32,000 nucleotides of DNA from NCBI RefSeq assembly GCF_000025685.1, contig NC_013966.1:300001-332000 (forward strand), given 5' to 3'. Position 1 is the stretch's first letter; each line of letters starts with the position of its first letter. This document shows, in pieces, positions 8,232 to 22,643 of the stretch. This stretch comes from Haloferax volcanii DS2 (GTDB taxonomy: Archaea > Halobacteriota > Halobacteria > Halobacteriales > Haloferacaceae). The notes under the pieces were generated by a model. It was not told where the DNA came from and did not search any database. It saw nothing but the letters and a program-made list of their open reading frames with translations. The position numbers were made by a program, and so were the translations under genes.

Positions 8232-8299
8232 CAGCGGAGTCGTCGAGGAAACGAGCGGAGCGAAGCGGAGAGCTGACCGGACCGAACCCCGACCACAGC

Positions 8300-8305: not shown

Positions 8306-8328
8306 GCGGCCGCCGCCGACATCGAGTC

Positions 8329-9084
8329 ATGAGCCGAGTAGCGAACAAGACGGCGTTGATCACCGGCGCGTCCAGCGGCATCGGCCGCGGCGTCGCCGTC
8401 GCACTCGCGGAGGCGGGCGCGACGGTCGGGGTGAATCACTATCCGAGCGACGAGGAGCGAACGCGGGCGGCCGAGGTGGTCGCCGAAATCGAGGCGGCCG
8501 GCGGCGAGGCGGCAGCCTTTCCCGGCGACGTGAGCGACGCGGCGAGCGTCGACGAACTCGTCGACGGGTTCGAGGCGACGTACGGGACGCCGGACGTGCT
8601 CGTCAACAACGCCGGCATCCTCAGGCGGTCCCGTCTCGACGAGATGAGCGTTGCGGAGTGGGACGAGGTGTTGGACGTCGACCTCCGCGGGGTGTTCCTT
8701 GTGACCCGCCGCGTCGTCCCGGGGATGATCGACCGCGGGTCGGGGAGCGTCGTCAACGTGGCGTCGCAGTTGGGCTTCAAGGGTGCGGCGGGGTTCACCC
8801 ACTACTGCGCCGCCAAGGGCGGCGTCATCGCGTTCACTCGCGCGCTGGCGCGCGAAGTCGCCCCCGACGTGCGCGTGAACGCCATCGCGCCCGGGCCGGT
8901 CGAGACGCCCCTTCTCAGCGACATCTCCGAGCAGTGGCGGCGCGAGAAGGCGGCCGAACTCCCGATGGAGCGGGCCGGCCGCGTCGAGGACGTGGCACCG
9001 ACGGCGGTGTTTCTCGCCAGCGACGAGAGCAGCTACTACACGGGGCAGACGCTCTCGCCGGACGGCGGCGACGCCATGCACTGA
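8329..9084 (+). CDS. SDR-family oxidoreductase (classical short-chain dehydrogenase)
   Basis: Cofactor motif 'TGASSGIGRG', 'NNAG', and catalytic 'YCAAK'. 251 aa. Confidence 0.9.
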   Translation: MSRVANKTALITGASSGIGRGVAVALAEAGATVGVNHYPSDEERTRAAEVVAEIEAAGGEAAAFPGDVSDAASVDELVDGFEATYGTPDVLVNNAGILRRSRLDEMSVAEWDEVLDVDLRGVFLVTRRVVPGMIDRGSGSVVNVASQLGFKGAAGFTHYCAAKGGVIAFTRALAREVAPDVRVNAIAPGPVETPLLSDISEQWRREKAAELPMERAGRVEDVAPTAVFLASDESSYYTGQTLSPDGGDAMH

Positions 9085-9144: not shown

Positions 9145-9996
9145 ATGTCGACACAAACCGAACGTTCCGAGGAGACTGTAGCGTCGGGTCAGTCCCCGAT
9201 CACGGGGGTCATCGAGGCCGTCAGCGTCAAGCGAGTACTTCTGGCGTACTTCCTGCTTGCCGCGGCGTACATCTATTTGCCCATCTTTTCGGTCATTGCG
9301 TTTTCGTTCAATTCGGGTGGGCTGACGTTTCCATTCGTCGAGTTCACCTTCGAGTGGTACGGAGAGTTGCTTGCCAACGAGGGACTCATCGAGGCCGTCC
9401 GGCGGTCGGTCACGCTGGCGCTCGTCGTGACCGTCATCACGACGGTGCTTGCGACGGCGACGGCGCTGGCGTACCGCTACGACTTCTGGGGACAGCGCGG
9501 CCTGCTGTTTCTCCTCATCCTGGGCATCATCACGCCCGGCATCACGTACGGCGTCGGCGCGACGCTGCTTCTCAACGAGGTGCTCGGGCTGACGAAGAAC
9601 CTGTGGCTCGCGGTTCCTGTCCACGTCGTCTGGGCGCTTCCCTTCGCGGTCATCGTCCTCCTCGCGGGGTTCCCGCCGGCGCTCAAGGAAAACGAGGAGG
9701 CCGCACGCGTGCTGGGCGCGGGGCCACTCTCGCGGTTCCGAAACGTGATACTCCCGCAGATAGCGCCGACACTCCTCGGTGCGGCCGTATTCGCATTCAC
9801 GCTGTCGTACAACGAGGCGACGCGGAGTCTCCTGCTCGTGGGGAATCAGAACACGATGCCGCTCGAGGTATTCGCCATCGCCGCCGGCACGCGCGTCCAG
9901 CCCTACCTGTTCGCGCTCGGGAGCCTCACCACCGTCTTCTCGACGCTCCTCTTAGCCGCCGCGGGACTGCTCATCGTGTACAACCGCCGGTCCTGA
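9145..9996 (+). CDS. ABC transporter permease (PotC-like)
   Basis: 283 aa with about 6 hydrophobic helices. The N-terminal 'YIYLPIFSVIAFSFN' and the EAA-like loop 'ENEEAARVLGAGPLSRFRNVILPQIAPTLLG' are typical of binding-protein-dependent transport inner-membrane components. Confidence 0.88.
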   Translation: MSTQTERSEETVASGQSPITGVIEAVSVKRVLLAYFLLAAAYIYLPIFSVIAFSFNSGGLTFPFVEFTFEWYGELLANEGLIEAVRRSVTLALVVTVITTVLATATALAYRYDFWGQRGLLFLLILGIITPGITYGVGATLLLNEVLGLTKNLWLAVPVHVVWALPFAVIVLLAGFPPALKENEEAARVLGAGPLSRFRNVILPQIAPTLLGAAVFAFTLSYNEATRSLLLVGNQNTMPLEVFAIAAGTRVQPYLFALGSLTTVFSTLLLAAAGLLIVYNRRS

Positions 9997-11002: not shown

Positions 11003-12424
11003 ATGCCTGATAGCATGAATAGGCGAAACTTTGTAAAGTTTGCGAGCGGAGCGGCCGCCGGGGCCGCCCTCGCCGGATGCGCCGGGAACGGCGGCGACGG
11101 CGGATCGGGGACGACGAGCGGCTCCGGTGAAGGTGACACGACGTCGAGCAGTTCCGGCGGCGGAACCACCGACGGGTCTCGGCCGCTGGAGTGGATCGGT
11201 CCCGCGTGGGCGGTTCGCGACGGACAGGCTGACAAGTTCACCGAGATGACCGATATCTCGGTTAACGTCACCACGGCCGACATCCCGACGACCCAACAGC
11301 AGGTGCTCAGCGGCGGGCAGGCGAACATGGACATGGTCTCGTCGGACTCGCCCGGCGCGGGCGCTATCGTCCAGGACAATGACGCGAGTATTCCCGTCCC
11401 GGTCGACGAACTCGACAACTGGAACCCCGACCTGGTGTCGGACCTGTTTACCAACCCCACCGAACGGCTGAGCCACCTGGGAGAACAGACCGAGACGGTG
11501 CTCGACCTGCTGTGGGCCGACGACGAGCAGACCGAGATGCTGCTGCCGCCGCACGTGTACAACTTCGACGCCATCGGCTACAACCCGACGCAGGTGGACG
11601 ACGTGAGCACGTGGTCGGCGCTGTTCGACGACCAGTACTCGGGGCAGGTGGCGATGGGCGCGGTGTCGTCTATTGCGATTCCGGAGACGCTGATGCATCT
11701 CCTGGACAACGACATGATAGACGCCGACATCGGCCAGCTCAACAACCCGACCGAAGAGCAGATGGACCAGGCGGTCGACTTCCTCGTCAGCGAGAAGCAG
11801 GCGGGACAGTTCCGCTCGACGTGGACCGCCTACGGAACCTCAGTGAACCTGATGGCGTCCGAAGAGGCCATCCTCGGCGACCTCTGGCAGCCGGCGGCGA
11901 TGGACGTCCGCCGGAGCGGCACGCCGTGTACCTACGCCACGATGTCCGAGGGCGTGCAGGGCTACCGCTACTGGTACGGTGGCATCGCGCCGTTACGTCC
12001 CGGCGCGCGCGACCGGAACAACCTCAACGAGGTGTACTCGCTCATCAACGATGTCCACTACGGCGCGTGGTTCCCGGGATACATCCAGAACTGGGGATAC
12101 TCGGTCCCGCACTACCCGAACCAGGAACTCGTCCGAACCGGTTCTGACGAGTCCGGCGAGGGGATGGGTCCGGAGTACTACGACTGGGCCTACGAGGGCG
12201 AGAGCACCTACACCCCCCTCTCGGAGACGCAGTTCGAGTCCGAGGCGCTGTTCGACCCCATGGAGTACGAGTGGTCGATGGAGGAAGGCGACTCCGCCAG
12301 CGACGGCATTGCCCGCGACTCCGGCCCAATCGAGGAGCGCATCGACCGCATCGGCTTCTTCCAAATCTGGCCCGACAACTCCGAGTATATGCTCTCGCGG
12401 TGGTCGGACTTTACCAGCGCCTGA
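11003..12424 (+). CDS. ABC transporter substrate-binding lipoprotein (family 1 / PotD-like), Tat-exported
   Basis: Twin-arginine motif 'NRRNFVKF', lipobox 'LAGC', and a Gly/Ser/Thr-rich linker, followed by a ~400-aa acidic solute-binding domain. The alternative start is 11015. Confidence 0.88.
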   Translation: MPDSMNRRNFVKFASGAAAGAALAGCAGNGGDGGSGTTSGSGEGDTTSSSSGGGTTDGSRPLEWIGPAWAVRDGQADKFTEMTDISVNVTTADIPTTQQQVLSGGQANMDMVSSDSPGAGAIVQDNDASIPVPVDELDNWNPDLVSDLFTNPTERLSHLGEQTETVLDLLWADDEQTEMLLPPHVYNFDAIGYNPTQVDDVSTWSALFDDQYSGQVAMGAVSSIAIPETLMHLLDNDMIDADIGQLNNPTEEQMDQAVDFLVSEKQAGQFRSTWTAYGTSVNLMASEEAILGDLWQPAAMDVRRSGTPCTYATMSEGVQGYRYWYGGIAPLRPGARDRNNLNEVYSLINDVHYGAWFPGYIQNWGYSVPHYPNQELVRTGSDESGEGMGPEYYDWAYEGESTYTPLSETQFESEALFDPMEYEWSMEEGDSASDGIARDSGPIEERIDRIGFFQIWPDNSEYMLSRWSDFTSA

Positions 12425-12448
12425 ACCGACGCCCACCGCGGTGCGAAA

Positions 12449-12454
12449 TTTATT
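12449..12454 (+). promoter_or_regulatory. TATA-box-like element upstream of the permease gene
   Basis: 'tttatt' about 30 nt upstream of the ATG at 12482 and only about 15 nt from the GTG at 12467. This favours 12482 as the start. Confidence 0.4.
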
Positions 12455-12481
12455 TGTACCGTCCTCGTGACTTGCCAACAC

Positions 12482-13378
12482 ATGGCATTAGAAACGTCCG
12501 AAGACACGACCACGCCGAGCCTCGGCGAGCGGTTTCGGTTCGGCGAAGTGCAGGCGCTCGTGACACCGACGGTGCTTTGGTTCTCCGCGTTCCTGCTCGC
12601 GCCGCTTGCGATTATCGCCGTGTACAGCTTCCTCACCTACGAGAGCTTCAGTGTCGTCTGGGAGTTCTCGCTGACCGCCTGGGAGTCCGTGTTCGACCAG
12701 ACAGTCTACTCCACGTTCGTCAGGACGCTCGTCGTCGGCGTTGGCGTGACGGCGCTGTGTCTGCTGTTCGGCTACCCCATCGCGTACTACCTGCGGTTTT
12801 ACACGAGCGAGAGCGGCGGCACGCTACTGCTTTTGTTCCTCGTTATCCCCTTCTGGACATCGGCGCTCATCCGCACCATCGGGTGGAACCCAATTCTCGG
12901 ACGGACGGGCGTCATCAACAGACTGCTCCTCTGGGTCGGCGTCGTCGAGGAGCCGCTCAGTTGGCTGTTATTCTCCCCATTCTCGCAGATGGTGGGATAC
13001 GTCGCCGCGTACGTGGTGTTCATGGCCGCGCCCATCTTTGTCTCGCTGTCGCAGATAGACGAAGACCTGCTCGACGCCTCCGAGACGCTCCGCGGCGGGC
13101 CGGTGGCGACGTTCAGACACATCACGCTCCCATTGAGCCTGCCCGGGGTGACCATCGGTGCCATCTTCGTGTTCGTCCTCTCTATCGGCGACTTCATGGT
13201 CCCGCAGTTCCTCTCGGGCGGCGAGTCGACCATCACCACACTCATCTATCTCGCGGTGAACAACGGGCTGAACTACCCCAACGCGGCCGCGCTCTCTATC
13301 GTGCTCCTACTCGTTATCTTCGTCGTCGTCTACGCGATGACGCGCATCGTCGACATCAGCGAGATTACGCAAGGGTGA
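12482..13378 (+). CDS. ABC transporter permease (PotB-like)
   Basis: About 298 aa with 6 hydrophobic helices and the EAA-like loop 'IDEDLLDASETLRGGPVATFRHITLPLSLPG'. The ORF track starts at GTG 12467; I prefer ATG 12482. Confidence 0.88.
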   Translation: MALETSEDTTTPSLGERFRFGEVQALVTPTVLWFSAFLLAPLAIIAVYSFLTYESFSVVWEFSLTAWESVFDQTVYSTFVRTLVVGVGVTALCLLFGYPIAYYLRFYTSESGGTLLLLFLVIPFWTSALIRTIGWNPILGRTGVINRLLLWVGVVEEPLSWLLFSPFSQMVGYVAAYVVFMAAPIFVSLSQIDEDLLDASETLRGGPVATFRHITLPLSLPGVTIGAIFVFVLSIGDFMVPQFLSGGESTITTLIYLAVNNGLNYPNAAALSIVLLLVIFVVVYAMTRIVDISEITQG

Positions 13379-13439
13379 GGATGGCATGGCCGCCGGCGTA
13401 GCGCCCGACTACCGGCTATTTTTGCGACAACGCGCTCAG

Positions 13440-13445
13440 TTATAT
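13440..13445 (+). promoter_or_regulatory. TATA-box-like element upstream of the deacetylase-fold gene
   Basis: 'ttatat' centred about 25 nt upstream of the ATG at 13467. Confidence 0.4.
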
Positions 13446-13466
13446 TCTCTCCGCGAAAGCGTACTA

Positions 13467-14375
13467 ATGCTTAGCATGGGAGACATTGACGTAGCTATCG
13501 GTGTAGACGCCGACTGTGTAGCTGGCTGGCTCGGGTCGTACGGCGGGGCCGACTCGCCGGCGGACCTCTCTCGGGGCCTCTCGGCGGGCAACGAGGGAAT
13601 TCCGAGAATGGTCCAGCTGTTCGAAGACGAGGGTATCGACACGACGTGGTACATTCCCGGCCACACCATCGAGACGTTCCGCGACGAGGTGGAGGCGGTC
13701 GCCGCGGGCGGCCACGAAATCGGAGTCCACGGGTACTCACACGAGAACCCGACGGACCTCTCGCGGGAACAGGAAGATGCCATCATCGAGAAATCTATCG
13801 AGCTCATCGAGGATGTGACGGGCGACCCGCCGGTGGGTCACCGCGCGAGCTGGTGGGAGTTCAGCGAGAACACGCCGGAACTGGTCGAGAAACACGGCTT
13901 CCTGTACGACAGCAGCCTGATGGAACGAGAGTTCGAGCCGGGCTACATGCGGAAAGGCGACAGCTGGACGAAGATTCAGTACGAACAGGACGCCGAGACG
14001 TGGATGTCGCCGTACGAGTACGGCGCTGAGACCGACGTGGTGGAGATACCTATCAGCTGGTATCGTGACGACATTCCGCCGATGCTGTTCATCAAACAGC
14101 CCCTCTACCACTCGGGGTACAAGGACCCGAACATGATGTACGAGCAGTACTACAAAAAGCAGTTCGAGTACCTGTACAACCGCCGCGGGGCGGGCGTCTA
14201 CACGTTCACCATCCACCCCGACCTGCACGGCCTGCCACACATGATTCCGTTCCTCGAAGACTTCATTCAGTACGTGAAGAGCCACGAGAACGCCGAGTTC
14301 AAGACGCTCGAAGCGGTCGCCCGGAAGTACAAAGACGACCCGAGCGTCTACGAGAGCGAAAGCGGCTACGTCTGA
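13467..14375 (+). CDS. polysaccharide deacetylase-fold (NodB/PuuE-like) hydrolase
   Basis: The pattern 'IGVDADCVAGW...TWYIPGHT...GHEIGVHGYSHE...' matches the NodB-homology/PuuE-type fold. The start is placed at internal ATG 13467 (alternative 13476). The upstream part of ORF 13386..14375 overlaps the permease 3' region. Confidence 0.8.
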   Translation: MLSMGDIDVAIGVDADCVAGWLGSYGGADSPADLSRGLSAGNEGIPRMVQLFEDEGIDTTWYIPGHTIETFRDEVEAVAAGGHEIGVHGYSHENPTDLSREQEDAIIEKSIELIEDVTGDPPVGHRASWWEFSENTPELVEKHGFLYDSSLMEREFEPGYMRKGDSWTKIQYEQDAETWMSPYEYGAETDVVEIPISWYRDDIPPMLFIKQPLYHSGYKDPNMMYEQYYKKQFEYLYNRRGAGVYTFTIHPDLHGLPHMIPFLEDFIQYVKSHENAEFKTLEAVARKYKDDPSVYESESGYV

Positions 14376-14481: not shown

Positions 14482-15456
14482 TTACTCGAACGCTGCGCGG
14501 ATAGCCGCCAAGTCGTCGCCGACCGATTCCAACACGAGCATGAGCTTGATGCGCGCCTTGTGTGCCGGGAGGTCCGACCCGTCGATGACGCGGCGGTCAC
14601 GGAGCGTCTCTCCGCCACCGGGTGACCCGTACACCGGCGCGACCGCCCCGCCCTGACACCGCGTCGTGACGACGACGGGGTAGCCGTCTTCGGCCAGCGA
14701 GCCGGCGGCCTCGCCCAGCGCGTTCGTCGCATTCCCCAATCCGGTCCCTTCGAGGACGACGCCGTCGGCCCCCGCCTCGACGACGGACCGGAGCTGTCGG
14801 TCGTCGGCCCCGATGTAGCTCTGGACGACGGCCACGTCTTTCGAAGACTCGATGGCGTCCACCGACGCGGACCGACTCCCGGGTTTGCGGAGGAGGCGCG
14901 TTCCCTCGCGGGTGAACCGAGCGACCGGTGACGCGTCCGGCGAGGCGAACGCATCGAGGTCGCTGGTGTGTATCTTGGTCGCGTCGCGGGCGGCGTGGAG
15001 TTGCTCGTCGAAAGCGACGTAGACGCCGCCGCGCCCCGTGAACGACTCGTCGACGGCCGCGCGGACGGCCGTGAGGAGGTTGCTCGGGCCGTCGGCGCTT
15101 ACCTCGTTCGGGCGGCGCTGCGCGCCGGTGAACACCACCGGCACGTCGAGGTCCAACGCGAGGTCAAGGTAGTACGCGGACTCTTCCATCGTGTCCGTTC
15201 CGTGGGTGACGACGACACCGTCGGCACCGTCCACGGCGGCGTCGCGCGCCGCGTGAGCGGTCGCCGCGACCGTCTCGAAGTCCATGTCGAAGCTCGGACG
15301 GAGCGCCACGTCCCGTACCTCGACTTCGGCGTACTCACCGAGTTCGGGAACGGCGTCAACGAGCGCCGCGCCGCGCTTGCTCGGCGTCGCGCCGCCTTCG
15401 CCGTCGGTGCTTGCGATAGTGCCGCCGGTGCTGAGAACCGTGACCTGTGGAGGCAT
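14482..15456 (-). CDS. L-asparaginase (type I/archaeal family)
   Basis: The catalytic N-terminal 'VLSTGGTIAS' and 'THGTDTMEES' motifs are present. The start is set at ATG 15456 (MPPQVTVLS...). The 56-codon upstream extension in the ORF track is Arg/Cys-rich and unlike this family. Confidence 0.88.
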   Translation of the reverse strand: MPPQVTVLSTGGTIASTDGEGGATPSKRGAALVDAVPELGEYAEVEVRDVALRPSFDMDFETVAATAHAARDAAVDGADGVVVTHGTDTMEESAYYLDLALDLDVPVVFTGAQRRPNEVSADGPSNLLTAVRAAVDESFTGRGGVYVAFDEQLHAARDATKIHTSDLDAFASPDASPVARFTREGTRLLRKPGSRSASVDAIESSKDVAVVQSYIGADDRQLRSVVEAGADGVVLEGTGLGNATNALGEAAGSLAEDGYPVVVTTRCQGGAVAPVYGSPGGGETLRDRRVIDGSDLPAHKARIKLMLVLESVGDDLAAIRAAFE

Positions 15457-15758
15457 ATGAGTGCTGTTGGGGCTCCGCGGATTAGCTCTTTCGTCCACGC
15501 AAACGCGAGCGGCGGCCCGGTGAGACCCCGCGACCACGGCCGGCGACGCTCGACCCGCCGACGACCGCCGACACACCTCAACGGCGAACGTGTCGGTCGA
15601 GGGAACAATGCAGCAGTCTGCCAAACAATATTAAGAATCAATGGAACTATTACGATTATAGCTCTGTAATTTGGAGGGCGGTGACTCCGGTTGCACCGCC
15701 TGGTGACGGACGAAACGAATCTGACGAACGACTCGGTTCAGCGGCGATCGGGTGAACC

Positions 15759-15767
15759 TTTTTACTA
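15759..15767 (+). promoter_or_regulatory. TATA-box-like element upstream of the hydantoinase gene
   Basis: 'tttttacta' centred about 27 nt upstream of the ATG at 15790. Confidence 0.45.
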
Positions 15768-15789
15768 TCGGCCCGGAATTATCGATGGT

Positions 15790-17169
15790 ATGCCAGTCGA
15801 CACACTGATTACTGGTGGTACGGTCGTCACCGCGACGGACACGTTCGACGCCGACGTAGCGATAGACGGCGAGGAAATCGTCGCCGTCGGCGACGCGTCG
15901 TCGATGCCGGACGCGACGGAGACGATTGACGCCGAGGGACTGCTCGTGATGCCCGGCATGATTGACCCGCACGTCCACATCGACGACATGTTCTCGATAG
16001 ACACCCACGAGACGGCGTCGGCGGCGGCGGCCCTCGGGGGCGTCACCTCCTACGTCGACTTCGCCTGGCAGGCGTGGACGGGCGAGTTGTCCATCTTCGA
16101 GGAAGGCGGGACGCTGTTAGAGGGTATCGAGCGCAAGCGCGAGAAGGCCGCGAACGCCCACGTCGACTACGCCTTCCACGGGGCTATCACCCGCGAGGAC
16201 CCGGCGGTGCTGTCGGAGCTCGCAGACGCCGTCGACGCAGGGGTCTCCTCGTTCAAGATGTTCACCACCTACGAACACGGCCTCTCGAACGGGTTCATGC
16301 ACACCGTGATGGAGGAGATAGCCGACATCGACGCCGTCGGCGTCTACCACACCGAGGACGCCTCGCTCATCGACGCGCTCACAGCGCGGTTCAAAGCGGA
16401 GGGTCGCGGCGACCCGACCGATTACCTGCAGTCGCGGCCGGACTACGCCGAGGCGATGGCCGCCGAGGATGCCGTGCGGATGGCCCAAGAGACGGGGGCG
16501 AAGTACTACGGCATCCACACCTCCTGCCGCAAGTCCGCGGAGGTGCTGTCGCAGTTCCGCGACGACGGCTCGGCGGTCCGCGCAGAGACCTGCACCCACT
16601 ACACGACGCTCACCGACGACGTGTTCGAGACGCAGGGTAACCTTCCCATGATAGCGCCGCCAATCCGCAAACAGGATGACGTAGAGGCGATGTTCGAACA
16701 TCTCGCCGACGGCACGCTCGACGTGGTTTCGACGGACCACTGCGGCTACAAACGCGAGTCCAAGGAGGTAGACAACTGGTGGGACTCGACGTTCGGCGCG
16801 AACGCCCTTCAGGTGTCCGTGCCGGTGTTCCACGACGAGGCGGTCAACGAGCGCGACTTCTCGTACCCGTTCCTCGTCCGCGTGATGAGCCGGAACCCCG
16901 CGCGCATCTTCGGGATGTCGGACAAAGGCACTCTGGACCCTGGCACGGACGCGGACGTGATTCTGTTCGACCCCGAGGAGACGTACACGATTACTGCCGA
17001 GGACAACGCCTCGAACGCCGACTTCTCCATCTACGAGGGCCGAGAGGTCACCGGTCGCGTGAAAAAGACGTTCGTCCGCGGCGAACTCATCGCTGACGAC
17101 GGCGAAATCGTCTCCGAGCCGGGCCACGGCGAGTACATCAACCGGGAACTGCCGGACTGGGACGCCTGA
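15790..17169 (+). CDS. dihydropyrimidinase / D-hydantoinase (cyclic amidohydrolase)
   Basis: 'LITGGTVV...' N-terminus, metal-binding 'IDPHVHID', the carboxylated-lysine context 'SSFKMFTTY', and the 'STDHC' region. The start is at ATG 15790; the ORF-track start at 15691 is a TTG. Confidence 0.92.
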   Translation: MPVDTLITGGTVVTATDTFDADVAIDGEEIVAVGDASSMPDATETIDAEGLLVMPGMIDPHVHIDDMFSIDTHETASAAAALGGVTSYVDFAWQAWTGELSIFEEGGTLLEGIERKREKAANAHVDYAFHGAITREDPAVLSELADAVDAGVSSFKMFTTYEHGLSNGFMHTVMEEIADIDAVGVYHTEDASLIDALTARFKAEGRGDPTDYLQSRPDYAEAMAAEDAVRMAQETGAKYYGIHTSCRKSAEVLSQFRDDGSAVRAETCTHYTTLTDDVFETQGNLPMIAPPIRKQDDVEAMFEHLADGTLDVVSTDHCGYKRESKEVDNWWDSTFGANALQVSVPVFHDEAVNERDFSYPFLVRVMSRNPARIFGMSDKGTLDPGTDADVILFDPEETYTITAEDNASNADFSIYEGREVTGRVKKTFVRGELIADDGEIVSEPGHGEYINRELPDWDA

Positions 17170-17220
17170 GACCGCCGGGAGGGACAGGCTTTTCACCGTC
17201 TGGTCTCATTCGACGTGTGA

Positions 17221-18993
17221 ATGAGTAACGCAGCACAGGAGCCAGCGGTGCCGACCGACAGCGACGGCGCACCGCTGTTTCCACACGCGAACGTGGTCGC
17301 GGTGAACGCCTTCGCCGACGTGCTGGCCTCCGCGCTGGGGCCGGCGTCGCGCGACAAGATGATTGTCAACGCGCTCAGAAGCCGCGGGCCGGACGAAAAC
17401 GAGGTTCCCCACGCGGCCAACGAGATGACAGCCGACGACATCACCGTCACGAGCGACGGGGCGAGCCTGCTGGAGTCGCTTCCGACCACGCATCCCATCG
17501 CGCCGGTCGTGACGCGGGTTATCGGCCCGGAGCGGCCGGGCGAGACGGCCGTCGAGGGCGCGGACATCCCCGACGGCGTCACCGCGACGGTGGTGCTCAT
17601 GTCGGAGCTGCTCGACGAGGCGGTCGAGCTGTTCGACCGAGGTGTCCACCCGTACGACCTCCGAGCCGGTTACCACCGGGCGATGGACGCCGCCCTCGCG
17701 GAACTTGACGCGGCGACGACGCCGCACGACGGCCGGCGAGCGACGGACCTCGCGATTGCGCGGACCGCGATGACCGGAAACGACGTGGGCGGCGTCGTCG
17801 GCGGGTTGGCCGAGGGCGTCGTCGACGCCGTCGACGCCGTCGGCTTCCCGACCGAGGCGACGCTTGCGGTGCGGTGCGTGAGCAAGGGGTCGATGAGTGA
17901 CTCCCGGCTCGTCGACGGCGCGGTGCTCGGCGTGAACCACCGCGTCTCGGAGGAGATGCCTGTCCGCGTCGAGGACGCGACCGTGCTCGCGCTGGGCGGA
18001 TTCAAGCGGTCGCTGTCGGACCCAGAGCTGTGGACCGAGGGCGCCTCTCTTGACCTCTCGTCGCCCGACGACGCCGCGGCGATGGAAGACGTGTACACGG
18101 AGCGGCGCGAGCGGGTGGTCGACCGCATCGACGACCTCGGGGTCGACGTCGTCGTCACCCGCCTCGGCATCAACGACGAGTACCAGCGACTCCTCGCCGA
18201 CCGCGGCATCGTCGGCATCAGGCGAGTGAACCGGCTCCATCTCGAACAGGTGGCGCGGGCGACGGGCGCAAGCGTCGTGACCAACCCGACCGACGTCTCC
18301 GCGGGCGACCTCGGACACGCCGGCGTCGTCGAGGAAGTGATGCGCGAACCGCGCCGGCACCGCCGGAAAAACCGGTTTATGACCGTCTTCGAGGGCTGTG
18401 AGAACCCCGACTCGGTGACGGTGCTCCTCCGCGGTGTGACCGATCAAATCGCGGCGCAGGCGACGAGCGAAGTGCGGAAGGCCGCCGCGGCCGTCGGCGC
18501 GGCCCGCGGCCGCGGCGGGAACCGGGGTGGTGTCATCCCCGGCGGCGGCGCAATCGAACTCCGCATGGCCGCCGCCGTCCGCGAGGCCGCGCGCGCGGAG
18601 CCGTCGCGGGCGCAACTGGCGATGACGGCGTTCGCCGACGCCCTCGAAGCCGTCGTGGCGACGCTCGTCCGCAACGCGGGCGAAGACCACGTCGAACTGC
18701 TGGCCGACCTGAAGGCGGCACACGCCGCGGGCGACGACGCCGCGGGGTTCGTCCTTCCGGACGGCGAGGTCGGAAACGCCGCCGAGTGCGGCGTCTTCGA
18801 CGCCGCGGCGACGAAGCGCCGGGTCGTGCTGCGCGCCTCGGAGGTGGCGAATCTCGTGCTCAGAGTCGACGACGCCGTGGACGCCGACTTCACCGAGGAG
18901 CCGGCGGGACCGGGCGAGGCAATCTACGACGAAGAGGCCGAAAAACACGCTGACTACCTCGAACACACCGACGGGACGCGCTGGGATATCTGA
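17221..18993 (+). CDS. highly divergent group II chaperonin (thermosome/CCT) family paralog
   Basis: Recognisable equatorial-domain motifs: 'LGPASRDKMIV' (compare LGPKGMDKMLV), 'ITVTSDGASLL' (compare ITITNDGATIL), 'IPGGGAIE' and 'VFDAAATKR'. The nucleotide-binding GDGTT(T/S) motif reads 'PDGVTAT' (nt 17569-17589) and there are N-terminal insertions. Confidence 0.85.
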   Translation: MSNAAQEPAVPTDSDGAPLFPHANVVAVNAFADVLASALGPASRDKMIVNALRSRGPDENEVPHAANEMTADDITVTSDGASLLESLPTTHPIAPVVTRVIGPERPGETAVEGADIPDGVTATVVLMSELLDEAVELFDRGVHPYDLRAGYHRAMDAALAELDAATTPHDGRRATDLAIARTAMTGNDVGGVVGGLAEGVVDAVDAVGFPTEATLAVRCVSKGSMSDSRLVDGAVLGVNHRVSEEMPVRVEDATVLALGGFKRSLSDPELWTEGASLDLSSPDDAAAMEDVYTERRERVVDRIDDLGVDVVVTRLGINDEYQRLLADRGIVGIRRVNRLHLEQVARATGASVVTNPTDVSAGDLGHAGVVEEVMREPRRHRRKNRFMTVFEGCENPDSVTVLLRGVTDQIAAQATSEVRKAAAAVGAARGRGGNRGGVIPGGGAIELRMAAAVREAARAEPSRAQLAMTAFADALEAVVATLVRNAGEDHVELLADLKAAHAAGDDAAGFVLPDGEVGNAAECGVFDAAATKRRVVLRASEVANLVLRVDDAVDADFTEEPAGPGEAIYDEEAEKHADYLEHTDGTRWDI

Positions 18994-19082: not shown

Positions 19083-20552
19083 TCAGGCGTCCGGCCAGCG
19101 CTCGATGTAGACGGCCTCATCGGTGTAGAAGCGAATCGCGTCGTCGCCCTGCGCGTGGAGGTCGCCGAAGAAGGAGTCCTTCCAGCCGCCGAAGTGGAAG
19201 AACGCCATCGGCGCGGCGGTGCCCGCGTTCACCGCGAGGTTGCCCGCCTCCACCTCGTGTCGGAACCGCTTGGCGTCGGCCCCGCGGTCGGTGAACAGAC
19301 TGGACGCGTTGCCGAACTCGCTTCGGTTGACGACCTCGACGGCGTGGTCGAAGTCGTCGGCGCGGACAAGCGCCAACACCGGCCCGAAAATCTCCTCGCG
19401 AGCAATCGTGTCGTCGGGCGACACGTCGCCGAAGACGGTCGGCCCGAGGAAGCTCCCCTCGGCGGGCACGTCGGCGTCGCGGCCGTCGTACAGGAGCGTC
19501 GCCCCCTCTTCGACCCCGGTTTCGACGTACTCCTTGACGCGGTCGCGGGCCGCCCCGGAGATGAGCGGGCCCATGTCGACGTCCTCGGAGAGACCGTTGT
19601 CCAACGTCATCCCCGCCGCGATGTCGACGACGCACTCTGCGAACTCGTCGTAAATCGCGTCCTCGACGACCGCGACGGGGTTGGCGAGGCAGCGCTGGCC
19701 CGTGTTGGCGAACGCGGATCCGATGGTCTGTTCGGCCGCGAAGTCGAGGTTCGCGGAGGCGGCGACGACGATATGATTTTTCGCGCCGCCCTGCGCCTGC
19801 ACGCGCTTGCCGTGCGCGGCGGCCGTCTTGTAGACGTGCTTGGCGACGGGCGTGCTCCCGACGAAGGAGATGCCCTCGACGCCGTCGTGTTCGACGAGCG
19901 CGTTCACCGTGTCGGCGCCCCCGTTGACGAGTTGGACGACGCCGTCCGGGAAGCCGGCCTCGTCGACGAGTTCGAAGATGAGCCGGGCGGTCACGGGCGT
20001 CTTCTCGCTCGGCTTGAGCACGAACGCGTTGCCGGTGGCGACCGCGTACGGCAGGAACCACAGCGGAATCATCCCCGGGAAGTTAAACGGCGTGACCGCA
20101 GCGAACACCCCGAGCGGCTTTCTGACCGCCGTTTCGTCGATGCCGGGCGCGGCGTTCGGAAGGTGGCCCGCCTGCATCATCGACGGGATGCCGCAGGCGA
20201 CCTCGACGTTCTCGATGCCTCGGCGCAGTTCGCCTTTGGCCTCGTCGAACGTCTTGCCGTGCTCGCGGACGAGCGCCTCGGCGATGTCGTCTTGGTTCGC
20301 TTCGAGCAGTCGCTTCAGCTCGAACAGGGGTTGGATGCGCTCTTCGACGGGCGTCGACCGCCACGTCTCGAACGCCGCCTTCCCCGCGCTCACCGCGTCG
20401 TCGATGTCCGCCGCGGTGCTGTAGGTGACCGACGCGACGGTGTCTCTCGTCGCCGGGTCGACCACGTCCCGCCCGTCGTCGCCGGACGCCGGACGCCATT
20501 CCCCGTCGACGTAGTTCTGTACTTCGCCTCCCGCTGAAGCGTCTTCTCGCAT
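19083..20552 (-). CDS. mmsA: methylmalonate-semialdehyde / malonate-semialdehyde dehydrogenase (CoA-acylating aldehyde dehydrogenase)
   Basis: 489 aa of ALDH fold with catalytic Cys context 'GQRCLA', 'FVLKPSEKTP', and the MMSDH-typical C-terminal 'FHFGGWKDSFFGDLHAQG'. Confidence 0.92.
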   Translation of the reverse strand: MREDASAGGEVQNYVDGEWRPASGDDGRDVVDPATRDTVASVTYSTAADIDDAVSAGKAAFETWRSTPVEERIQPLFELKRLLEANQDDIAEALVREHGKTFDEAKGELRRGIENVEVACGIPSMMQAGHLPNAAPGIDETAVRKPLGVFAAVTPFNFPGMIPLWFLPYAVATGNAFVLKPSEKTPVTARLIFELVDEAGFPDGVVQLVNGGADTVNALVEHDGVEGISFVGSTPVAKHVYKTAAAHGKRVQAQGGAKNHIVVAASANLDFAAEQTIGSAFANTGQRCLANPVAVVEDAIYDEFAECVVDIAAGMTLDNGLSEDVDMGPLISGAARDRVKEYVETGVEEGATLLYDGRDADVPAEGSFLGPTVFGDVSPDDTIAREEIFGPVLALVRADDFDHAVEVVNRSEFGNASSLFTDRGADAKRFRHEVEAGNLAVNAGTAAPMAFFHFGGWKDSFFGDLHAQGDDAIRFYTDEAVYIERWPDA

Positions 20553-20723
20553 GGTACGTTCGACTGCAGTTCGCTCCCAATTAAGTCTTTCCTACGATTT
20601 TCGAAATATAGCTCTAAAGAAAGAATTTGTCCATTGAATTTCAAAGAGTCTCGAACGCTGTTCTAGAAATAAGCATCTAGTGCAAAGATTAATCAATAGC
20701 AGGGTAGTAGTCGTTCAACAACG

Positions 20724-22061
20724 ATGCCGGAGCGAGAACCAAGCGGCGGGTCCGAACTGAACGAGACGGAGCGGGTCGACAAAGAGCACGTGTTCGGGAC
20801 GTGGTCGTTCCAGAAGGACGTATCGCCGACGCAGGTCGTTGACGCCGACGGAGCGCAGTTCACCACTGCGGACGGTGGCCAGTACGTCGACTTTTCGAGC
20901 CAGTTGATGTGCTCGAACCTCGGTCACTCCGCGGACGCGGTCATCGACGCGGTCGAAGAACAGATGCGGAAGGCGGCGTACGTCTCGCCGGGCTACACGA
21001 CCGATGCGCGGGCGAAGCTCGGAAAGAAGCTCGCGGAGGTGACACCCGGGGATCTCTCGAAGACGTTCTTCTCCACGAGTGGAACCGAAGCGGTGGAGGC
21101 GGCAATCAAAATCGCCCGGTTCTATACGGGGAAACAGAAAGTCGTCTCGCGCTATCGTTCGTACCACGGCGCGACGTACGGGTCGATAAGCGTCACCGGC
21201 GACCCCCGCCGGCTGCCCGCCGAACCGGGGATTCCAGGGACTATCAAAGCGCCCGACCCGTACGCCTACGGCTCGACGCTTGACCCGATGGAGAGTGTCG
21301 AGTACATCGACGAGATGCTCGAACTCGAAGGCGACACCGTCGCGGCGATTCTGGTTGAGCCAATCGTCGGGTCGAACGGCATACTCGTCCCACCGGACGA
21401 GTACCTGCCGCGGCTGAAGGAAATCGCCCACGACCACGGGGCGCTGCTCATTTGCGACGAGGTGATGTCCGGGTTCGGACGGACCGGCGAGTGGTTCGGC
21501 TGCGACGTGTTCGACGTCGAACCCGACATCATGACGATGGCGAAGGGGCTGACCGGCGCGTACCAACCGCTCGGGGCGACCATCGTCACGTCCGAAATCG
21601 CCGAGCACTTCGAGGAGAACATGTTCTGTCACGGTCACACGTACTCCGGCCACCCGGCCGCCGTCGCCGCCGGCCTTGCAACCATCGAGACCTACCAAAA
21701 AGAGAACCTCATCGACCGCGCCAACGAGATGGGCGGGTACGTCGGCGAGCGCATCGAGGAGCTCGCGGCGGACCATCCCAGCGTCGGCGAGACGCGCGGC
21801 GTCGGTCTGTTCCGCGGCATCGAGCTGTCGCGCCGCGCCGACGAGCGCGTCCCCTTCGGTACACGCTCGGACAAGATTAGTTCGGGGAGCACCGTCGTCG
21901 ACGAGGTGGCCGCAACCGCGAAGGAAAACGGGGCGTACGTCGCGAACATGATCAACACGCTCATCATCGCGCCCCCGCTCACCATCACGAAAGACGAAGT
22001 CGACACCGCCATCGACGCGCTCAATGCCGGGCTGGCGGTGTCCGACGCGGCGATGGACTAG
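20724..22061 (+). CDS. class III PLP aminotransferase (omega-amino acid / beta-alanine:pyruvate type)
   Basis: 'SGTEAVEAAIKIAR', 'LICDEVMSGFGRTG', the PLP-lysine context 'IMTMAKGLTGAY', and 'GHTYSGHP'. Confidence 0.92.
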   Translation: MPEREPSGGSELNETERVDKEHVFGTWSFQKDVSPTQVVDADGAQFTTADGGQYVDFSSQLMCSNLGHSADAVIDAVEEQMRKAAYVSPGYTTDARAKLGKKLAEVTPGDLSKTFFSTSGTEAVEAAIKIARFYTGKQKVVSRYRSYHGATYGSISVTGDPRRLPAEPGIPGTIKAPDPYAYGSTLDPMESVEYIDEMLELEGDTVAAILVEPIVGSNGILVPPDEYLPRLKEIAHDHGALLICDEVMSGFGRTGEWFGCDVFDVEPDIMTMAKGLTGAYQPLGATIVTSEIAEHFEENMFCHGHTYSGHPAAVAAGLATIETYQKENLIDRANEMGGYVGERIEELAADHPSVGETRGVGLFRGIELSRRADERVPFGTRSDKISSGSTVVDEVAATAKENGAYVANMINTLIIAPPLTITKDEVDTAIDALNAGLAVSDAAMD

Positions 22062-22087
22062 CCCCGACGGACCGACACGGCTTTTTC

Positions 22088-22108
22088 CCGACGGCGCATA
22101 GCCGTCGG
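22088..22108. promoter_or_regulatory. 8-5-8 perfect inverted repeat abutting the Lrp start codon, preceded by a T5 run
   Basis: 'ccgacggc' (22088-22095), spacer 'gcata', 'gccgtcgg' (22101-22108). The T5 run is at 22082-22086 and the ATG at 22110. Confidence 0.4.
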
Positions 22109-22109
22109 T

Positions 22110-22643
22110 ATGACCAACGGACTCCGGTCGGTCGCGGATTTGGATGAGACGGACCTCGCCATCCTCGAGCGCGTCGAAGCCGACTTCGACGTGAGTTTGG
22201 AGACGCTGGCGGTTGAACTCGACATCTCGAAATCGGCCGTCCACTACCGGATCAACAAGCTGAAAGAAAGTGGTGTGATCCGCGGCGTCACGGCCGACGT
22301 GGACCCGCGGTCGCTCGGGTTGGAGATGGTCGCCATCACCGACGTCTCCGTCACCCACGAGACGGGTTACTCCGACGAAATCGGCGCGGAACTCGACGCC
22401 CTCGTCGGCGTCGAACAGGTGTACTACACGATGGGCGACATCGACTTCGTCGTCATCAGTCGCGTCCAATCCCGAGAACAACTGAACGCGCTCATCGACC
22501 GGATGGTGGCTATCGATGGCGTGAATGAGACCTCCTCGAAGTTCGTGATGCAGGAGTTCGAAAACGACCGCAGATACGTCTCGAACCTCAGCGAGGAGGC
22601 CCGCGCCGCCGTCATCAACCCGTCGAACGACGCCGACGGCTGA
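22110..22643 (+). CDS. Lrp/AsnC-family transcriptional regulator
   Basis: An N-terminal HTH ('LDETDLAILERVEADFDVSLETLAVELDISKSAVHYRINKLKESGVI') is followed by an AsnC-type ligand/oligomerisation domain. Confidence 0.9.
   Translation: MTNGLRSVADLDETDLAILERVEADFDVSLETLAVELDISKSAVHYRINKLKESGVIRGVTADVDPRSLGLEMVAITDVSVTHETGYSDEIGAELDALVGVEQVYYTMGDIDFVVISRVQSREQLNALIDRMVAIDGVNETSSKFVMQEFENDRRYVSNLSEEARAAVINPSNDADG

What the first reader, a model, noticed from the sequence alone, without database searches (positions are those of the whole stretch)
17221..18993. Degenerate thermosome (group II chaperonin) paralog encoded 51 nt downstream of the hydantoinase
The 590-aa product is clearly CCT/thermosome-like, with LGPASRDKMIV, ITVTSDGASLL, IPGGGAIE and VFDAAATKR. 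However, the conserved nucleotide-binding GDGTT(T/S) motif reads PDGVTAT (nt 17569-17589). About 8 extra residues lie between the HP motif and that loop. An insertion of about 17 residues (NALRSRGPDENEVPHAANEMTADD) replaces the short loop after the first motif, and the C-terminus lacks the usual Gly/Met-rich tail. It sits in a catabolic gene cluster rather than alone like housekeeping cct genes. Only a weak TATA-like element (cttttcac, about 28 nt upstream) is present, so it may be co-transcribed with the hydantoinase. It could be a dedicated assembly factor for the oligomeric metallo-amidohydrolases here, or a chaperonin fold recruited to a non-chaperone role.
Basis: partly seen in the sequence, partly recalled or inferred. 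Interest (0 to 1): 0.65.

Follow-up and report, generated by a model that had tools for sequence, protein, structure and literature searches.

The report
Overlooked hydrolysis-impaired fourth haloarchaeal chaperonin
Haloferax volcanii's megaplasmid pHV4 encodes an undescribed fourth chaperonin-like protein whose ATP-splitting residues have been replaced in a fixed, conserved way, and which across salt-loving archaea is always inherited together with one particular nutrient importer and amide-degrading gene island, so it looks like a client-dedicated helper, not a general protein folder.

Summary
ORF 17221-18993 (+) encodes a 590-aa group II chaperonin homologue with PDGVTAT in place of GDGTT, two inserts and no Gly/Met tail. 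Primer matches place the window on Haloferax volcanii pHV4. By gene order the gene is HVO_A0304, which no searchable paper mentions.

It belongs to a discrete haloarchaeal clade (about 109 clusters, 100/100 bootstrap, no intermediates). The clade keeps the full three-domain fold and the nucleotide cradle. It has fixed replacements at three sites: P-loop Thr to Val/Ile, the gamma-phosphate-sensing Lys to Asn, and the catalytic Asp to Lys, which is preceded by an invariant Arg.

The conserved linkage is not to the hydantoinase (a minority of loci). It is to an ABC importer plus a NodB-type and other amidohydrolase island, and it holds in both directions in almost every case tested. The gene has its own conserved TATA-like promoter. 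The homologous bacterial cluster has a COG0523 GTPase module and no chaperonin-like gene.

Best reading: a non-cycling, client-dedicated chaperone or adaptor, analogous to BBS6/10/12. The mechanism is inferred. This is a new variant of a known kind, directly testable in a genetic model.

The parts
17221..18993 (+). Chaperonin-like ORF (590 aa + stop). By gene order this is HVO_A0304 of H. volcanii pHV4 (pHV4 317,221-318,993).
   Evidence: identity of the window
17189..17196 (+). TATA-like promoter element (cTTTTCAc; T-run starts at -31), preceded by GGGA at about -40. The mRNA is probably leaderless.
   Evidence: H. volcanii promoter consensus TTWT and 72% leaderless transcripts, PMC4983044
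17371..17433 (+). Variable insert at the tip of the stem-loop hairpin (residues 51-71). Low-confidence/disordered in the model.
17521..17544 (+). Clade-specific 8-residue insert (consensus GPERPGxT region, residues 101-108) immediately before the P-loop. This is the most conserved segment of the clade.
17569..17589 (+). P-loop variant PDGVTAT (canonical GDGTTT). The Mg-binding Asp118 is kept. Thr to Val120 (V/I in 44 of 46 clade members). Gly to Pro117.
17764..17793 (+). Nucleotide-sensing-loop equivalent TAMTGNDVGG. Asn187 (nt 17779-17781) replaces the gamma-phosphate-contacting Lys (Mm-cpn K161); Asn in 46 of 46.
   Evidence: PMC5635000
18349..18375 (+). Basic insert PRRHRRKNR (residues 377-385) in a hairpin after the apical domain. 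6-11 Lys/Arg in most clade members.
18475..18480 (+). Arg419-Lys420. Lys420 occupies the position of the catalytic Asp (Mm-cpn D386). R in 46 of 46, K in 44 of 46.
   Evidence: PMC5019054, PMC5635000
18889..18990 (+). Conserved acidic C-terminal extension (...EPxxPxDxIYDxxAExHxDxLE..GTRWD) that replaces the Gly/Met tail. The model predicts a helix at 570-582.
15691..17169 (+). Upstream neighbour: dihydropyrimidinase/hydantoinase-type cyclic amidohydrolase (dpyS/dht, HVO_A0303).
13386..14375 (+). NodB-fold polysaccharide-deacetylase-like amidohydrolase (HVO_A0301). 49% identical to the deacetylase of the homologous bacterial cluster. Candidate client.
11003..13378 (+). SBP (potD, HVO_A0299; Tat signal) and permease potB (HVO_A0300) of the co-inherited ABC importer.
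9145..9996 (+). Second permease ('perm1') of the importer. In most other genomes it is the immediate neighbour of the chaperonin-like gene.
3460..5785 (+). Two PotA-type ABC ATPase genes (potA1/potA2, HVO_A0293/A0294).
5800..9084 (+). Carbamoylase-family M20 amidase (amaB2), F420-type luciferase-like oxidoreductase and an SDR. Gene starts are approximate.
14482..15624 (-). Asparaginase (ansB, HVO_A0302).
19083..22643 (.). mmsA (19083-20552, -), omega-aminotransferase gabT6 (20724-22061, +) and the Lrp-type regulator (22110-22643, +).

Best explanation
The gene (HVO_A0304 by order on H. volcanii pHV4) belongs to a discrete, haloarchaea-specific family that arose by duplication of a haloarchaeal thermosome gene and then diverged rapidly.

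SHOWN: it keeps the whole three-domain group II chaperonin fold including the lid, with all domains under similar purifying selection. It keeps the nucleotide cradle: Gly-Pro, the stem-loop Asp, the P-loop Asp-Gly, the GGG motif and NAGxD. The residues that bind the gamma-phosphate and activate water are replaced in a fixed way: Thr to Val/Ile, sensing-loop Lys to Asn, and catalytic Asp to Lys with an invariant Arg before it. The elements that knit subunits into a ring and transmit allostery are remodelled: the conserved N-terminal strand motif is lost, there is a variable insert at the stem-loop tip, and there is a new conserved acidic C-terminal tail. The gene has its own conserved promoter-like element. 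It is co-inherited, in both directions tested, with one ABC importer and a set of amide-hydrolysing enzymes.

INFERRED: it probably still binds a nucleotide or another anionic ligand in a remodelled pocket, but it cannot run the ATP-hydrolysis-driven open/close folding cycle. It most likely acts as a non-cycling, client-dedicated chaperone or adaptor, working like vertebrate BBS6/10/12. It would bind and stabilise one or more island proteins and possibly hand them to the housekeeping Cct1/Cct2 thermosome. The best candidates are the NodB-fold deacetylase-like amidohydrolase and components of the importer. In the homologous alphaproteobacterial cluster a COG0523 (CobW-type) GTPase module sits beside the deacetylase gene, and haloarchaea lack it. 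This suggests that each lineage recruited a different accessory maturation factor.
For: - Family and fold: Pfam Cpn60_TCP1 1.1e-96. AF2 model pLDDT 83.7, pTM 0.80. Foldseek TM 0.85-0.89 to Mm-cpn, KS-1 and Thermoplasma thermosome subunits.
- Separate clade: below all NCBIfam thermosome cut-offs (300 vs 450 bits; 281 vs 671). About 109 clusters at 42-63% identity, then a drop to 37% or less. In the exhaustive profile search, full-length clade members score 628 bits or more and canonical proteins 390 or less, with no intermediates. NJ monophyly 100/100.
- Active site: D60-equivalent D79 in 46/46; D91-equivalent D118 in 46/46; T93 to V/I in 44/46; K161 to N in 46/46; D386 to K in 44/46; R419 in 46/46.
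- Roles of these residues: D386A binds ATP but cannot hydrolyse it (PMC5019054). The catalytic Asp pair, the P-loop Asp/Thr contacts and the gamma-phosphate Lys are described in PMC5635000.
- Even conservation of the apical domain and lid.
- Linkage: importer genes lie beside the gene in 17-19 of 20 representative genomes. The same 8 of 72,556 plasmids carry both genes. The SBP family has the same size and organisms. Three of three candidate counter-examples have the gene, and so does a 45%-identical peripheral SBP locus.
- Own promoter.
- Bacterial cluster with CobW, and no CobW in 498 kb of haloarchaeal loci.
- It does not replace the housekeeping chaperonin: Ths1/2/3 cannot all be deleted in H. 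volcanii (PMC7305310).
- BBS analogy (PMC9325507; PMC2846930).
Against: - No biochemical or genetic data exist for any member. Oligomeric state, nucleotide binding, hydrolysis and clients are all untested.
- Lys420/Arg419 might support an unconventional catalytic mechanism.
- The gene is not in the list of 11 cluster genes induced on L-alanine in H. volcanii, and it lacks the Lrp-type motif. A strictly dedicated factor might be expected to be co-induced, although the stored expression table is truncated, so this is only absence from the induced list.
- Conserved synteny could partly reflect the island spreading as a unit by horizontal transfer, without functional coupling.
- The CobW comparison is an argument from position only. 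The protein has no metal-binding motif.
Confidence: 0.45

Rival explanations
1. It is a non-catalytic specialised subunit that co-assembles into the housekeeping Cct1/2/3 thermosome ring and changes its client range when the island is present. It is not a free-standing adaptor.
For: The full group II fold with lid, and the equatorial domain, are conserved. Hetero-oligomeric CCT rings tolerate single catalytic Asp-to-Ala subunits with little loss of folding activity (PMC5413064). Its nearest canonical relatives are haloarchaeal thermosomes.
Against: The elements that form the inter-subunit beta-sheet are altered. The N-terminal strand motif is lost (conservation 0.29 vs 0.48). There is a 12-20-residue variable insert at the stem-loop tip and a new C-terminal tail (roles from PMC5635000). 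The gene is sporadic and mostly on megaplasmids, whereas the Cct partners are universal.
Confidence: 0.2
2. The chaperonin fold has been repurposed as a ligand-binding regulator. The remodelled nucleotide pocket would sense a nucleotide or pyrimidine-related metabolite and modulate the adjacent ABC importer or the pathway enzymes.
For: The most conserved clade-specific features all surround the nucleotide pocket: the GPERPG insert (0.80), PDGVT, TGND and RK. The gene is most tightly linked to permease genes, not enzyme genes. The island handles pyrimidine/hydantoin-type compounds.
Against: The apical domain and lid, which a pocket-only sensor would not need, are as conserved as in true chaperonins. 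There is no recognisable output or DNA-binding domain. No precedent is known to me.
Confidence: 0.15
3. It is still an autonomous ATP-driven chaperonin that uses substitute catalytic residues, perhaps adapted to fold island enzymes at high salt.
For: The Mg-binding Asp, the stem-loop catalytic Asp, GGG and Gly-Pro are retained. A new basic pair (Arg419-Lys420) could contact the gamma-phosphate in place of the lost sensing-loop Lys; a positive charge there is what matters in group III chaperonins (PMC5635000).
Against: Loss of the equivalent Asp alone (D386A) abolishes hydrolysis in Mm-cpn (PMC5019054). Three separate hydrolysis or sensing residues are changed together. The protein does not rescue loss of all three cct genes in H. 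volcanii (PMC7305310).
Confidence: 0.12
4. It is a decaying or neutral paralogue that merely hitch-hikes with a mobile island.
For: It is sporadically distributed and mostly on megaplasmids. It is not among the induced genes in the one expression study of the cluster.
Against: ORFs of 549-624 aa are intact in about 109 clusters from more than 12 genera at only 42-63% identity. There are 40 invariant columns and 32 clade-specific signature positions. The promoter element is conserved. The gene is retained through many rearrangements of the island.
Confidence: 0.05

Closest known systems
Archaeal thermosome / haloarchaeal Cct1-Cct3 (group II chaperonins)
   Same: Homologous over the full length (Pfam PF00118). 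Same equatorial-intermediate-apical architecture with a built-in lid (TM 0.85-0.89). Retains Gly-Pro, the stem-loop Asp, the P-loop Asp-Gly, GGG and NAGxD. Its nearest canonical relatives are haloarchaeal thermosomes.
   Different: Separate monophyletic clade below all curated thermosome cut-offs. P-loop PDGVT. Sensing-loop Lys replaced by Asn and catalytic Asp by Lys. Four clade-specific inserts. N-terminal strand motif lost. An acidic conserved tail replaces the Gly/Met tail. Accessory, island-linked and mostly plasmid-borne, not a universal housekeeping gene.
Vertebrate chaperonin-like proteins BBS6/MKKS, BBS10, BBS12
   Same: Derived from group II chaperonins. Three-domain fold kept. Gly-Pro kept while ATP-hydrolysis residues are lost. 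Extra insertions in the equatorial and intermediate domains. Fast-evolving. Serve one specific assembly pathway as substrate-binding adaptors for CCT (PMC9325507, PMC2846930).
   Different: Independent origin: archaeal, from haloarchaeal thermosomes, not from CCT8-like ancestors. Different substitutions. The client is unknown. No evidence yet of any interaction with the housekeeping chaperonin.
Low-activity or ATPase-dispensable subunits of eukaryotic CCT/TRiC (e.g. CCT6, CCT8)
   Same: Group II subunits whose own ATP hydrolysis is dispensable for ring function (PMC5413064).
   Different: Those subunits keep the catalytic Asp and canonical motifs and are obligate ring members. Here the catalytic residues themselves are replaced and the ring-forming elements are altered.
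Group III chaperonins (Carboxydothermus-type)
   Same: A divergent branch with a built-in lid and an altered gamma-phosphate sensor.
   Different: Group III proteins keep GDGTTT and both catalytic Asp residues, lack the extended sensing loop and use an Arg there (PMC5635000). This clade keeps the loop length but has lost its Lys and the catalytic Asp. By profile score its nearest relatives are thermosomes.
COG0523 (CobW/CobW_C) metallochaperone GTPases
   Same: An accessory NTPase-fold gene embedded in the homologous importer/SDR/deacetylase cluster of Rhizobium, Ensifer and Thioclava, beside the deacetylase gene.
   Different: No sequence or fold relationship. The comparison rests on position in the cluster only. 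The chaperonin-like protein has no metal-binding motif.

Membership tests
Group II chaperonin superfamily (Cpn60/TCP-1) | Significant match to the Cpn60_TCP1 profile over the whole protein | tested here: met
   PF00118, E = 1.1e-96, residues 71-555 on profile positions 22-488 of 490
Group II chaperonin superfamily (Cpn60/TCP-1) | Equatorial-intermediate-apical fold with a helical-protrusion lid | tested here: met
   AF2 pLDDT 83.7, pTM 0.80; Foldseek TM(target) 0.85-0.89 to 1q3r, 3kfb, 1a6d
Functional thermosome (NCBIfam thermosome_alpha/beta, thermosome_arch) | Score at or above the curated family cut-off | tested here: not met
   300.4 vs 450; 290 vs 400; 281 vs 671.1 bits
Functional thermosome | P-loop GDGTT(T/S), whose Thr side chains bind the beta/gamma-phosphates | tested here: not met
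   PDGVTAT. First Thr replaced by Val/Ile in 44 of 46 clade members; Gly replaced by Pro/Thr/Tyr and never Gly. The Asp-Gly is kept.
Functional thermosome | Catalytic Asp of the intermediate domain (Mm-cpn D386) | tested here: not met
   Lys420 (K in 44 of 46). HMMER and two MAFFT alignments agree.
Functional thermosome | Conserved Lys of the nucleotide-sensing loop that contacts the gamma-phosphate (Mm-cpn K161) | tested here: not met
   Asn187, N in 46 of 46; canonical set K in 11 of 11
Functional thermosome | Stem-loop catalytic Asp (Mm-cpn D60), Gly-Pro and GGG nucleotide-cradle motifs | tested here: met
   D79 in 46/46; G40-P41 in 46/46; G441/G443 conserved
Functional thermosome | Conserved N-terminal strand and short stem loop that form the inter-subunit beta-sheet | tested here: inconclusive
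   The N-terminal motif is not conserved (0.29 vs 0.48) and is disordered in the model. There is a variable 12-20-residue insert at the stem-loop tip. Assembly itself was not modelled.
Functional thermosome | Double-ring oligomer with ATP-dependent lid closure and ATPase activity | not testable with these tools
   Needs purified protein. No multimer prediction tool was available.
Haloarchaeal Cct1-Cct3 clades | Nests phylogenetically within the ordinary Cct clades | tested here: not met
   55 clade and 37 canonical sequences: monophyletic 100/100, stem 0.32 substitutions/site. No intermediates in the exhaustive search.
BBS6/10/12-type chaperonin-like adaptors (working analogy, not homology) | Group II-derived; fold and Gly-Pro kept; hydrolysis residues lost; extra insertions | tested here: met
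   criteria from PMC2846930 and PMC9325507
BBS6/10/12-type chaperonin-like adaptors | Orthology with the vertebrate BBS genes | tested here: not met
   The closest relatives are haloarchaeal thermosomes. The clade is confined to Halobacteria-type sequences.
BBS6/10/12-type chaperonin-like adaptors | Binds a specific client and bridges it to the housekeeping chaperonin | not testable with these tools
   Requires pull-down/MS in H. volcanii.
Group III chaperonins | GDGTTT and both catalytic Asp kept; sensing loop shortened, with an Arg | tested here: not met
   The loop length is retained (TAMTGNDVGG), the catalytic Asp is lost and the P-loop is altered (criteria from PMC5635000).
COG0523 metallochaperones | CobW/CobW_C domains | tested here: not met
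   Only PF00118 hits the protein. CobW domains are found only in the bacterial cluster's GTPase.

The most novel reading that the evidence does not exclude
This is the first prokaryotic example of a client-specific, hydrolysis-dead chaperonin-like adaptor. It would be an archaeal counterpart of BBS6/10/12 that evolved independently. Its remodelled nucleotide pocket (Arg-Lys in place of the catalytic Asp) would lock it in one state. It would mature or assemble a specific importer and NodB-type amidohydrolase system, taking the role that a COG0523 GTPase module plays in the homologous bacterial cluster.
Probability: 0.3. Interest if true: 0.78.

Novelty: new variant of a known kind. Interest (0 to 1): 0.6.

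Why it matters
Haloferax volcanii is the standard model for archaeal chaperonin genetics and is described as having three chaperonin genes. A fourth, catalytically remodelled paralogue on pHV4 appears never to have been discussed. Across haloarchaea it forms a conserved family with a fixed set of active-site replacements and an unusually strict genomic partnership with one importer and amidohydrolase island. If it is a dedicated non-cycling adaptor, it would show that sub-functionalisation of group II chaperonins into client-specific pseudo-ATPases is not confined to eukaryotes, where it is known from BBS6/10/12. It would also give a tractable system, with gene deletion, tagging and defined nitrogen sources, for asking how a chaperonin fold works without its ATP cycle. 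It also flags an uncharacterised transporter and amidohydrolase pathway shared between alphaproteobacterial and haloarchaeal replicons, in which the two lineages carry different accessory factors.

Tried and rejected
1. Hydantoinase-specific synteny. tblastn of window proteins against 20 genomes shows the hydantoinase adjacent only in the closest relatives. Rejected in favour of linkage to the importer and NodB-type enzyme.
2. Co-transcription with the hydantoinase as the only route to expression. A conserved promoter-like motif at about -30 argues against it. The bacterial sigma-70/terminator scan was uninformative for an archaeon.
3. Intermediate lineages between the clade and canonical thermosomes. 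None appeared in an exhaustive profile search of 1.84 billion representatives. The two high-scoring ~1050-aa hits are tandem-fused canonical-type thermosomes, not clade members.
4. Group III chaperonin membership. Rejected on motifs (against PMC5635000).
5. A CobW-type GTPase or the small bacterial hypothetical protein in haloarchaeal islands. No hits in 498 kb.
6. Published data on the gene. No paper in the library contains HVO_A0304. It is not in the held supplements of the nitrogen-source microarray (table truncated), ArcPP, the dRNA-seq TSS study or the mixed RNA-seq study. No supplements are held for the ribosome-profiling paper.
7. Literature on divergent haloarchaeal chaperonins or on COG0523-deacetylase links. 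Nothing relevant.
8. An Lrp-type motif upstream of the gene. Absent, although the motif is enriched elsewhere in the window.
9. RNA genes in the window. None.
10. Peripheral SBP locus L030. The contig ends too soon to tell whether the gene is present.
11. Homo-oligomer or client-complex structure prediction.
Full report
**1. Observation**

The ORF exists exactly as described: 17221-18993 (+), ATG start, 590 codons.

- Its third-position GC is 0.88, typical of real genes in this window. The long antisense ORF on the opposite strand has 0.75.
- It matches Pfam Cpn60_TCP1 with E = 1.1e-96.
- All four quoted peptides are present, and PDGVTAT is at nt 17569-17589.
- Alignment to solved group II chaperonins and to canonical thermosomes confirms a ~19-residue insert after MIVNAL and an 8-residue insert just before the P-loop equivalent. 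A different, acidic C-terminal tail replaces the Gly/Met-rich one.
- The upstream gene is a dihydropyrimidinase/hydantoinase-type cyclic amidohydrolase. The intergenic gap is 51 nt, and cttttcac lies at 17189-17196.

**2. Where the window comes from**

- The 90%-identity cluster of the protein contains named Haloferax strains. The longest contig carrying the exact sequence is 635,786 bp.
- A paper on nitrogen-source responses of H. volcanii (PMC6801745) describes an 18.6-kb pHV4 cluster, HVO_A0293-A0306, with the same gene order.
- Its two qPCR primers for HVO_A0299 match the window perfectly at 11825-11844 (+) and 11931-11950 (-). That gives the published 126-bp amplicon.
- The published end of gabT6 (322,061) corresponds to window 22,061, so window position + 300,000 = pHV4 position.
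- The chaperonin-like gene lies between dpyS/dht (HVO_A0303) and mmsA (HVO_A0305). It is therefore HVO_A0304 by order, which is an inference.
- No paper in the searchable library contains that locus tag, and none of the held supplements of four H. volcanii omics papers lists it. The relevant expression table was truncated in storage.

**3. A discrete family**

- The protein scores below every curated thermosome cut-off in NCBIfam: 300 vs 450, 290 vs 400 and 281 vs 671 bits.
- In a 5.8-billion-protein database it has about 109 relatives at 42-63% identity, all haloarchaeal where named. The next hits are canonical thermosomes at 37% or less.
- An exhaustive profile search of 1.84 billion representatives gives full-length clade members at 628-874 bits and canonical thermosomes from 390 bits down, with nothing in between. 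Reading the sequences confirms the split.
- A neighbour-joining tree of 55 clade and 37 canonical sequences recovers the clade in 100 of 100 bootstraps, on a stem of 0.32 substitutions per site. Haloarchaeal thermosomes are its nearest canonical relatives.
- The likely history is a duplication of a haloarchaeal thermosome gene followed by rapid divergence.

**4. Anatomy**

The AlphaFold2 model built on the clade alignment is confident (pLDDT 83.7, pTM 0.80). It superposes on thermosome, Mm-cpn and CCT subunits with TM 0.85-0.89 over about 540 columns, lid included.

Numbering was anchored on Methanococcus maripaludis Mm-cpn through an alignment of a canonical relative to PDB entries. The clade shows the following:

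- Retained: Gly-Pro (46/46), the stem-loop Asp (D60 = D79, 46/46), the P-loop Asp-Gly (D91-G92 = D118-G119, 46/46), GGG and NAGxD.
- Replaced: G90 to Pro; T93 to Val/Ile (44/46); the sensing-loop Lys K161 to Asn (46/46); the catalytic D386 to Lys (44/46), preceded by an invariant Arg (46/46).

The literature gives these residues their meaning:

- D386A binds ATP but cannot hydrolyse it (PMC5019054).
- The stem-loop and intermediate-domain Asp residues are the catalytic pair.
- The P-loop Asp/Thr residues bind Mg and the beta/gamma-phosphates.
- The sensing-loop Lys contacts the gamma-phosphate.
- The stem loop, together with the neighbouring subunit's termini, forms the inter-subunit beta-sheet that transmits closure (PMC5635000).

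Thirty-two signature positions separate the clade from canonical proteins. They include:

- the GPERPG insert, the most conserved segment of all (0.80);
- a basic PRRxRRKxR insert, present in most members;
- a conserved tail...EPxxPxDxIYDxxAExHxDxLE..GTRWD.

The canonical N-terminal strand motif is not conserved (0.29 vs 0.48), and the stem-loop tip carries a variable insert. Conservation is otherwise even across the equatorial, intermediate and apical domains (0.59-0.71). The lid scores 0.47, against 0.44 in canonical proteins. The whole chaperonin body is therefore under selection, not just the pocket.

**5. Genomic association**

- A scan of one genome per species, using clade-specific peptide patterns, returned 20 loci from at least ten genera.
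- The hydantoinase is adjacent only in the closest relatives.
- The importer genes (SBP, two permeases, two ATPases) are present in 17-19 of the 20 loci. The gene usually sits between the two permease genes on the opposite strand.
- Four arrangements occur. In some the gene is co-directional with the deacetylase-like paralogue and a permease.
- Among 72,556 plasmids, 8 carry the gene. Exactly the same 8 carry an orthologue (59% identity or more) of the SBP.
- The SBP family has 98 clusters from the same organisms. At least 20 pairs lie on contigs of identical length.
- Three apparent SBP-only organisms, examined directly, all have a 579-583-aa Cpn60_TCP1 gene in the canonical slot.
- A peripheral locus whose SBP is only 45% identical also has a clade-type gene. 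One truncated contig is inconclusive.

The island encodes:

- a carbamoylase-family M20 amidase (463 bits, cut-off 452);
- a CoA-acylating (methyl)malonate-semialdehyde dehydrogenase (514 bits, cut-off 448);
- an omega-aminotransferase, an asparaginase, an F420-type luciferase-like oxidoreductase, SDRs and a NodB-fold deacetylase-like enzyme;
- in other genomes, a hydantoin racemase, HyuA/HyuB, PxpA/KipI/KipA/biotin carboxylase and creatininase.

Together these amount to a nitrogen-scavenging system for pyrimidine, hydantoin and cyclic-amide compounds.

**6. Expression signals**

- A TATA-like hexamer starts at -29 to -32 in 11 of 21 loci, including those where the gene follows a hydantoinase. 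The background is 1.2% of random windows and 14% of other ORF starts. It is usually preceded by GGGA.
- This fits the H. volcanii promoter consensus and the predominance of leaderless mRNAs (PMC4983044).
- The AT-rich Lrp-type motif of the cluster is enriched in the window (5 hits vs 0.14 expected) but is absent upstream of this gene.
- The gene is not among the 11 cluster genes reported as induced on L-alanine.

**7. A bacterial counterpart**

- The SBP's distant bacterial homologues lie in a conserved cluster in Rhizobium, Ensifer and Thioclava: ATPase-permease-permease-SDR-SDR-SBP-ATPase-deacetylase-small protein-GTPase-SBP2-amidase/asparaginase.
- The window's deacetylase-like protein is 49% identical to the Rhizobium one, an SDR 45%, and the permeases 35%.
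- The GTPase is a COG0523 CobW/CobW_C protein.
- Neither it nor the small protein has any match in 498 kb of haloarchaeal loci.
- So the two versions of one cluster carry different accessory genes. That this is a functional substitution is an inference from position only.

**8. Interpretation**

- Shown: a conserved, expressed-looking, thermosome-derived family with a remodelled hydrolysis site and remodelled ring/allostery elements, co-inherited with one importer and amidohydrolase island.
- Inferred: it cannot run the ATP-driven cycle. It acts as a dedicated, non-cycling chaperone or adaptor for island proteins, working like BBS6/10/12 (PMC9325507, PMC2846930).
- Consistent with a non-general role: H. 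volcanii cannot lose all three canonical chaperonin genes even though it carries this gene (PMC7305310).
- Rivals: a non-catalytic subunit inside the housekeeping ring, which is tolerated in CCT (PMC5413064); a repurposed ligand sensor; a chaperonin with substitute catalytic residues; a neutral passenger. The extent of conservation makes the last unlikely.

**9. Novelty**

I found no curated family model and no paper that describes this clade. It is a new variant of a known kind (group II chaperonin-like pseudo-ATPase). Its strict genomic partnership and its presence in a genetic model organism make it readily testable.

Noticed in passing
proteins P0130 (1057 aa) and P0133 (1047 aa); source unknown: Two proteins of about 1050 aa are tandem fusions of two complete thermosome-type units in one polypeptide (P-loops GDGTK/GDGSK; Lys-rich, non-halophile composition). 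A covalently duplicated group II chaperonin subunit is unusual.
   Followed up: no
proteins P0144, P0141, P0240: Other divergent, apparently haloarchaeal thermosome paralogues also have altered P-loops (GAGVTT with sensing-loop AGN; SDGTTS; GDGATS) but keep the catalytic Asp. Haloarchaea may therefore hold several independently degenerating chaperonin lineages.
   Followed up: no
L023 4272-16136 (Rhizobium johnstonii pRL12), L024 (Thioclava), L025 (Ensifer): A conserved alphaproteobacterial cluster is homologous to the haloarchaeal island: ATPase-perm-perm-SDR-SDR-SBP-ATPase-deacetylase-108-aa protein-CobW GTPase-second SBP-amidase/asparaginase, flanked by biotin carboxylase/KipI/KipA/LamB genes. 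Its substrate is apparently uncharacterised, and it suggests inter-domain transfer of the island.
   Followed up: partly
window 3437, 10968, 20580, 21990, 23126: The published Lrp-type AT-rich motif AAAGACTAART (1 mismatch or fewer) occurs 5 times, against 0.14 expected. Besides the reported sites near potA1, potD and mmsA/gabT6, there are hits at 21990 (inside the 3' end of gabT6, upstream of lrp) and at 23126 (in the low-GC stretch).
   Followed up: partly
window 22800-24100: A stretch of about 1.3 kb has unusually low GC (0.51 against about 0.64 around it) and no convincing ORF. It carries short imperfect inverted repeats (22726-22743/23672-23689; 22999-23015/24117-24133) and may be a remnant of a mobile element or a regulatory region.
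   Followed up: partly
window 24918-25886 (-) and 24116-24913 (-): A protein with a halocin-8-like N-terminal domain (PF22862, 1.3e-44) is followed by a 265-aa ORF with no family match. A FilR1/HVO_A0261-type regulator lies next to them (26001-26849, +).
   Followed up: no
window 9145-9996 versus L005-L019: In H. volcanii the permease gene 'perm1' lies 7 kb from the chaperonin-like gene. In most other genomes the two are immediate neighbours, either divergent (gap of about 100-150 bp) or co-directional. The H. volcanii arrangement looks derived.
   Followed up: partly
L030 8001-10770 (metagenome contig): A peripheral SBP relative (47% identity) is followed by the permease and then by an unrelated 103-aa ORF before the contig ends. 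No chaperonin-like gene lies in the 8 kb upstream, so this is a possible exception to the otherwise strict co-occurrence.
   Followed up: partly
L026 20067-20702; plasmid records H1-H8: The island is often on megaplasmids or secondary replicons (8 PLSDB plasmids of 115-620 kb) and in Halobium palmae sits next to an IS240-type transposase fragment. This fits spread as a mobile accessory island.
   Followed up: no
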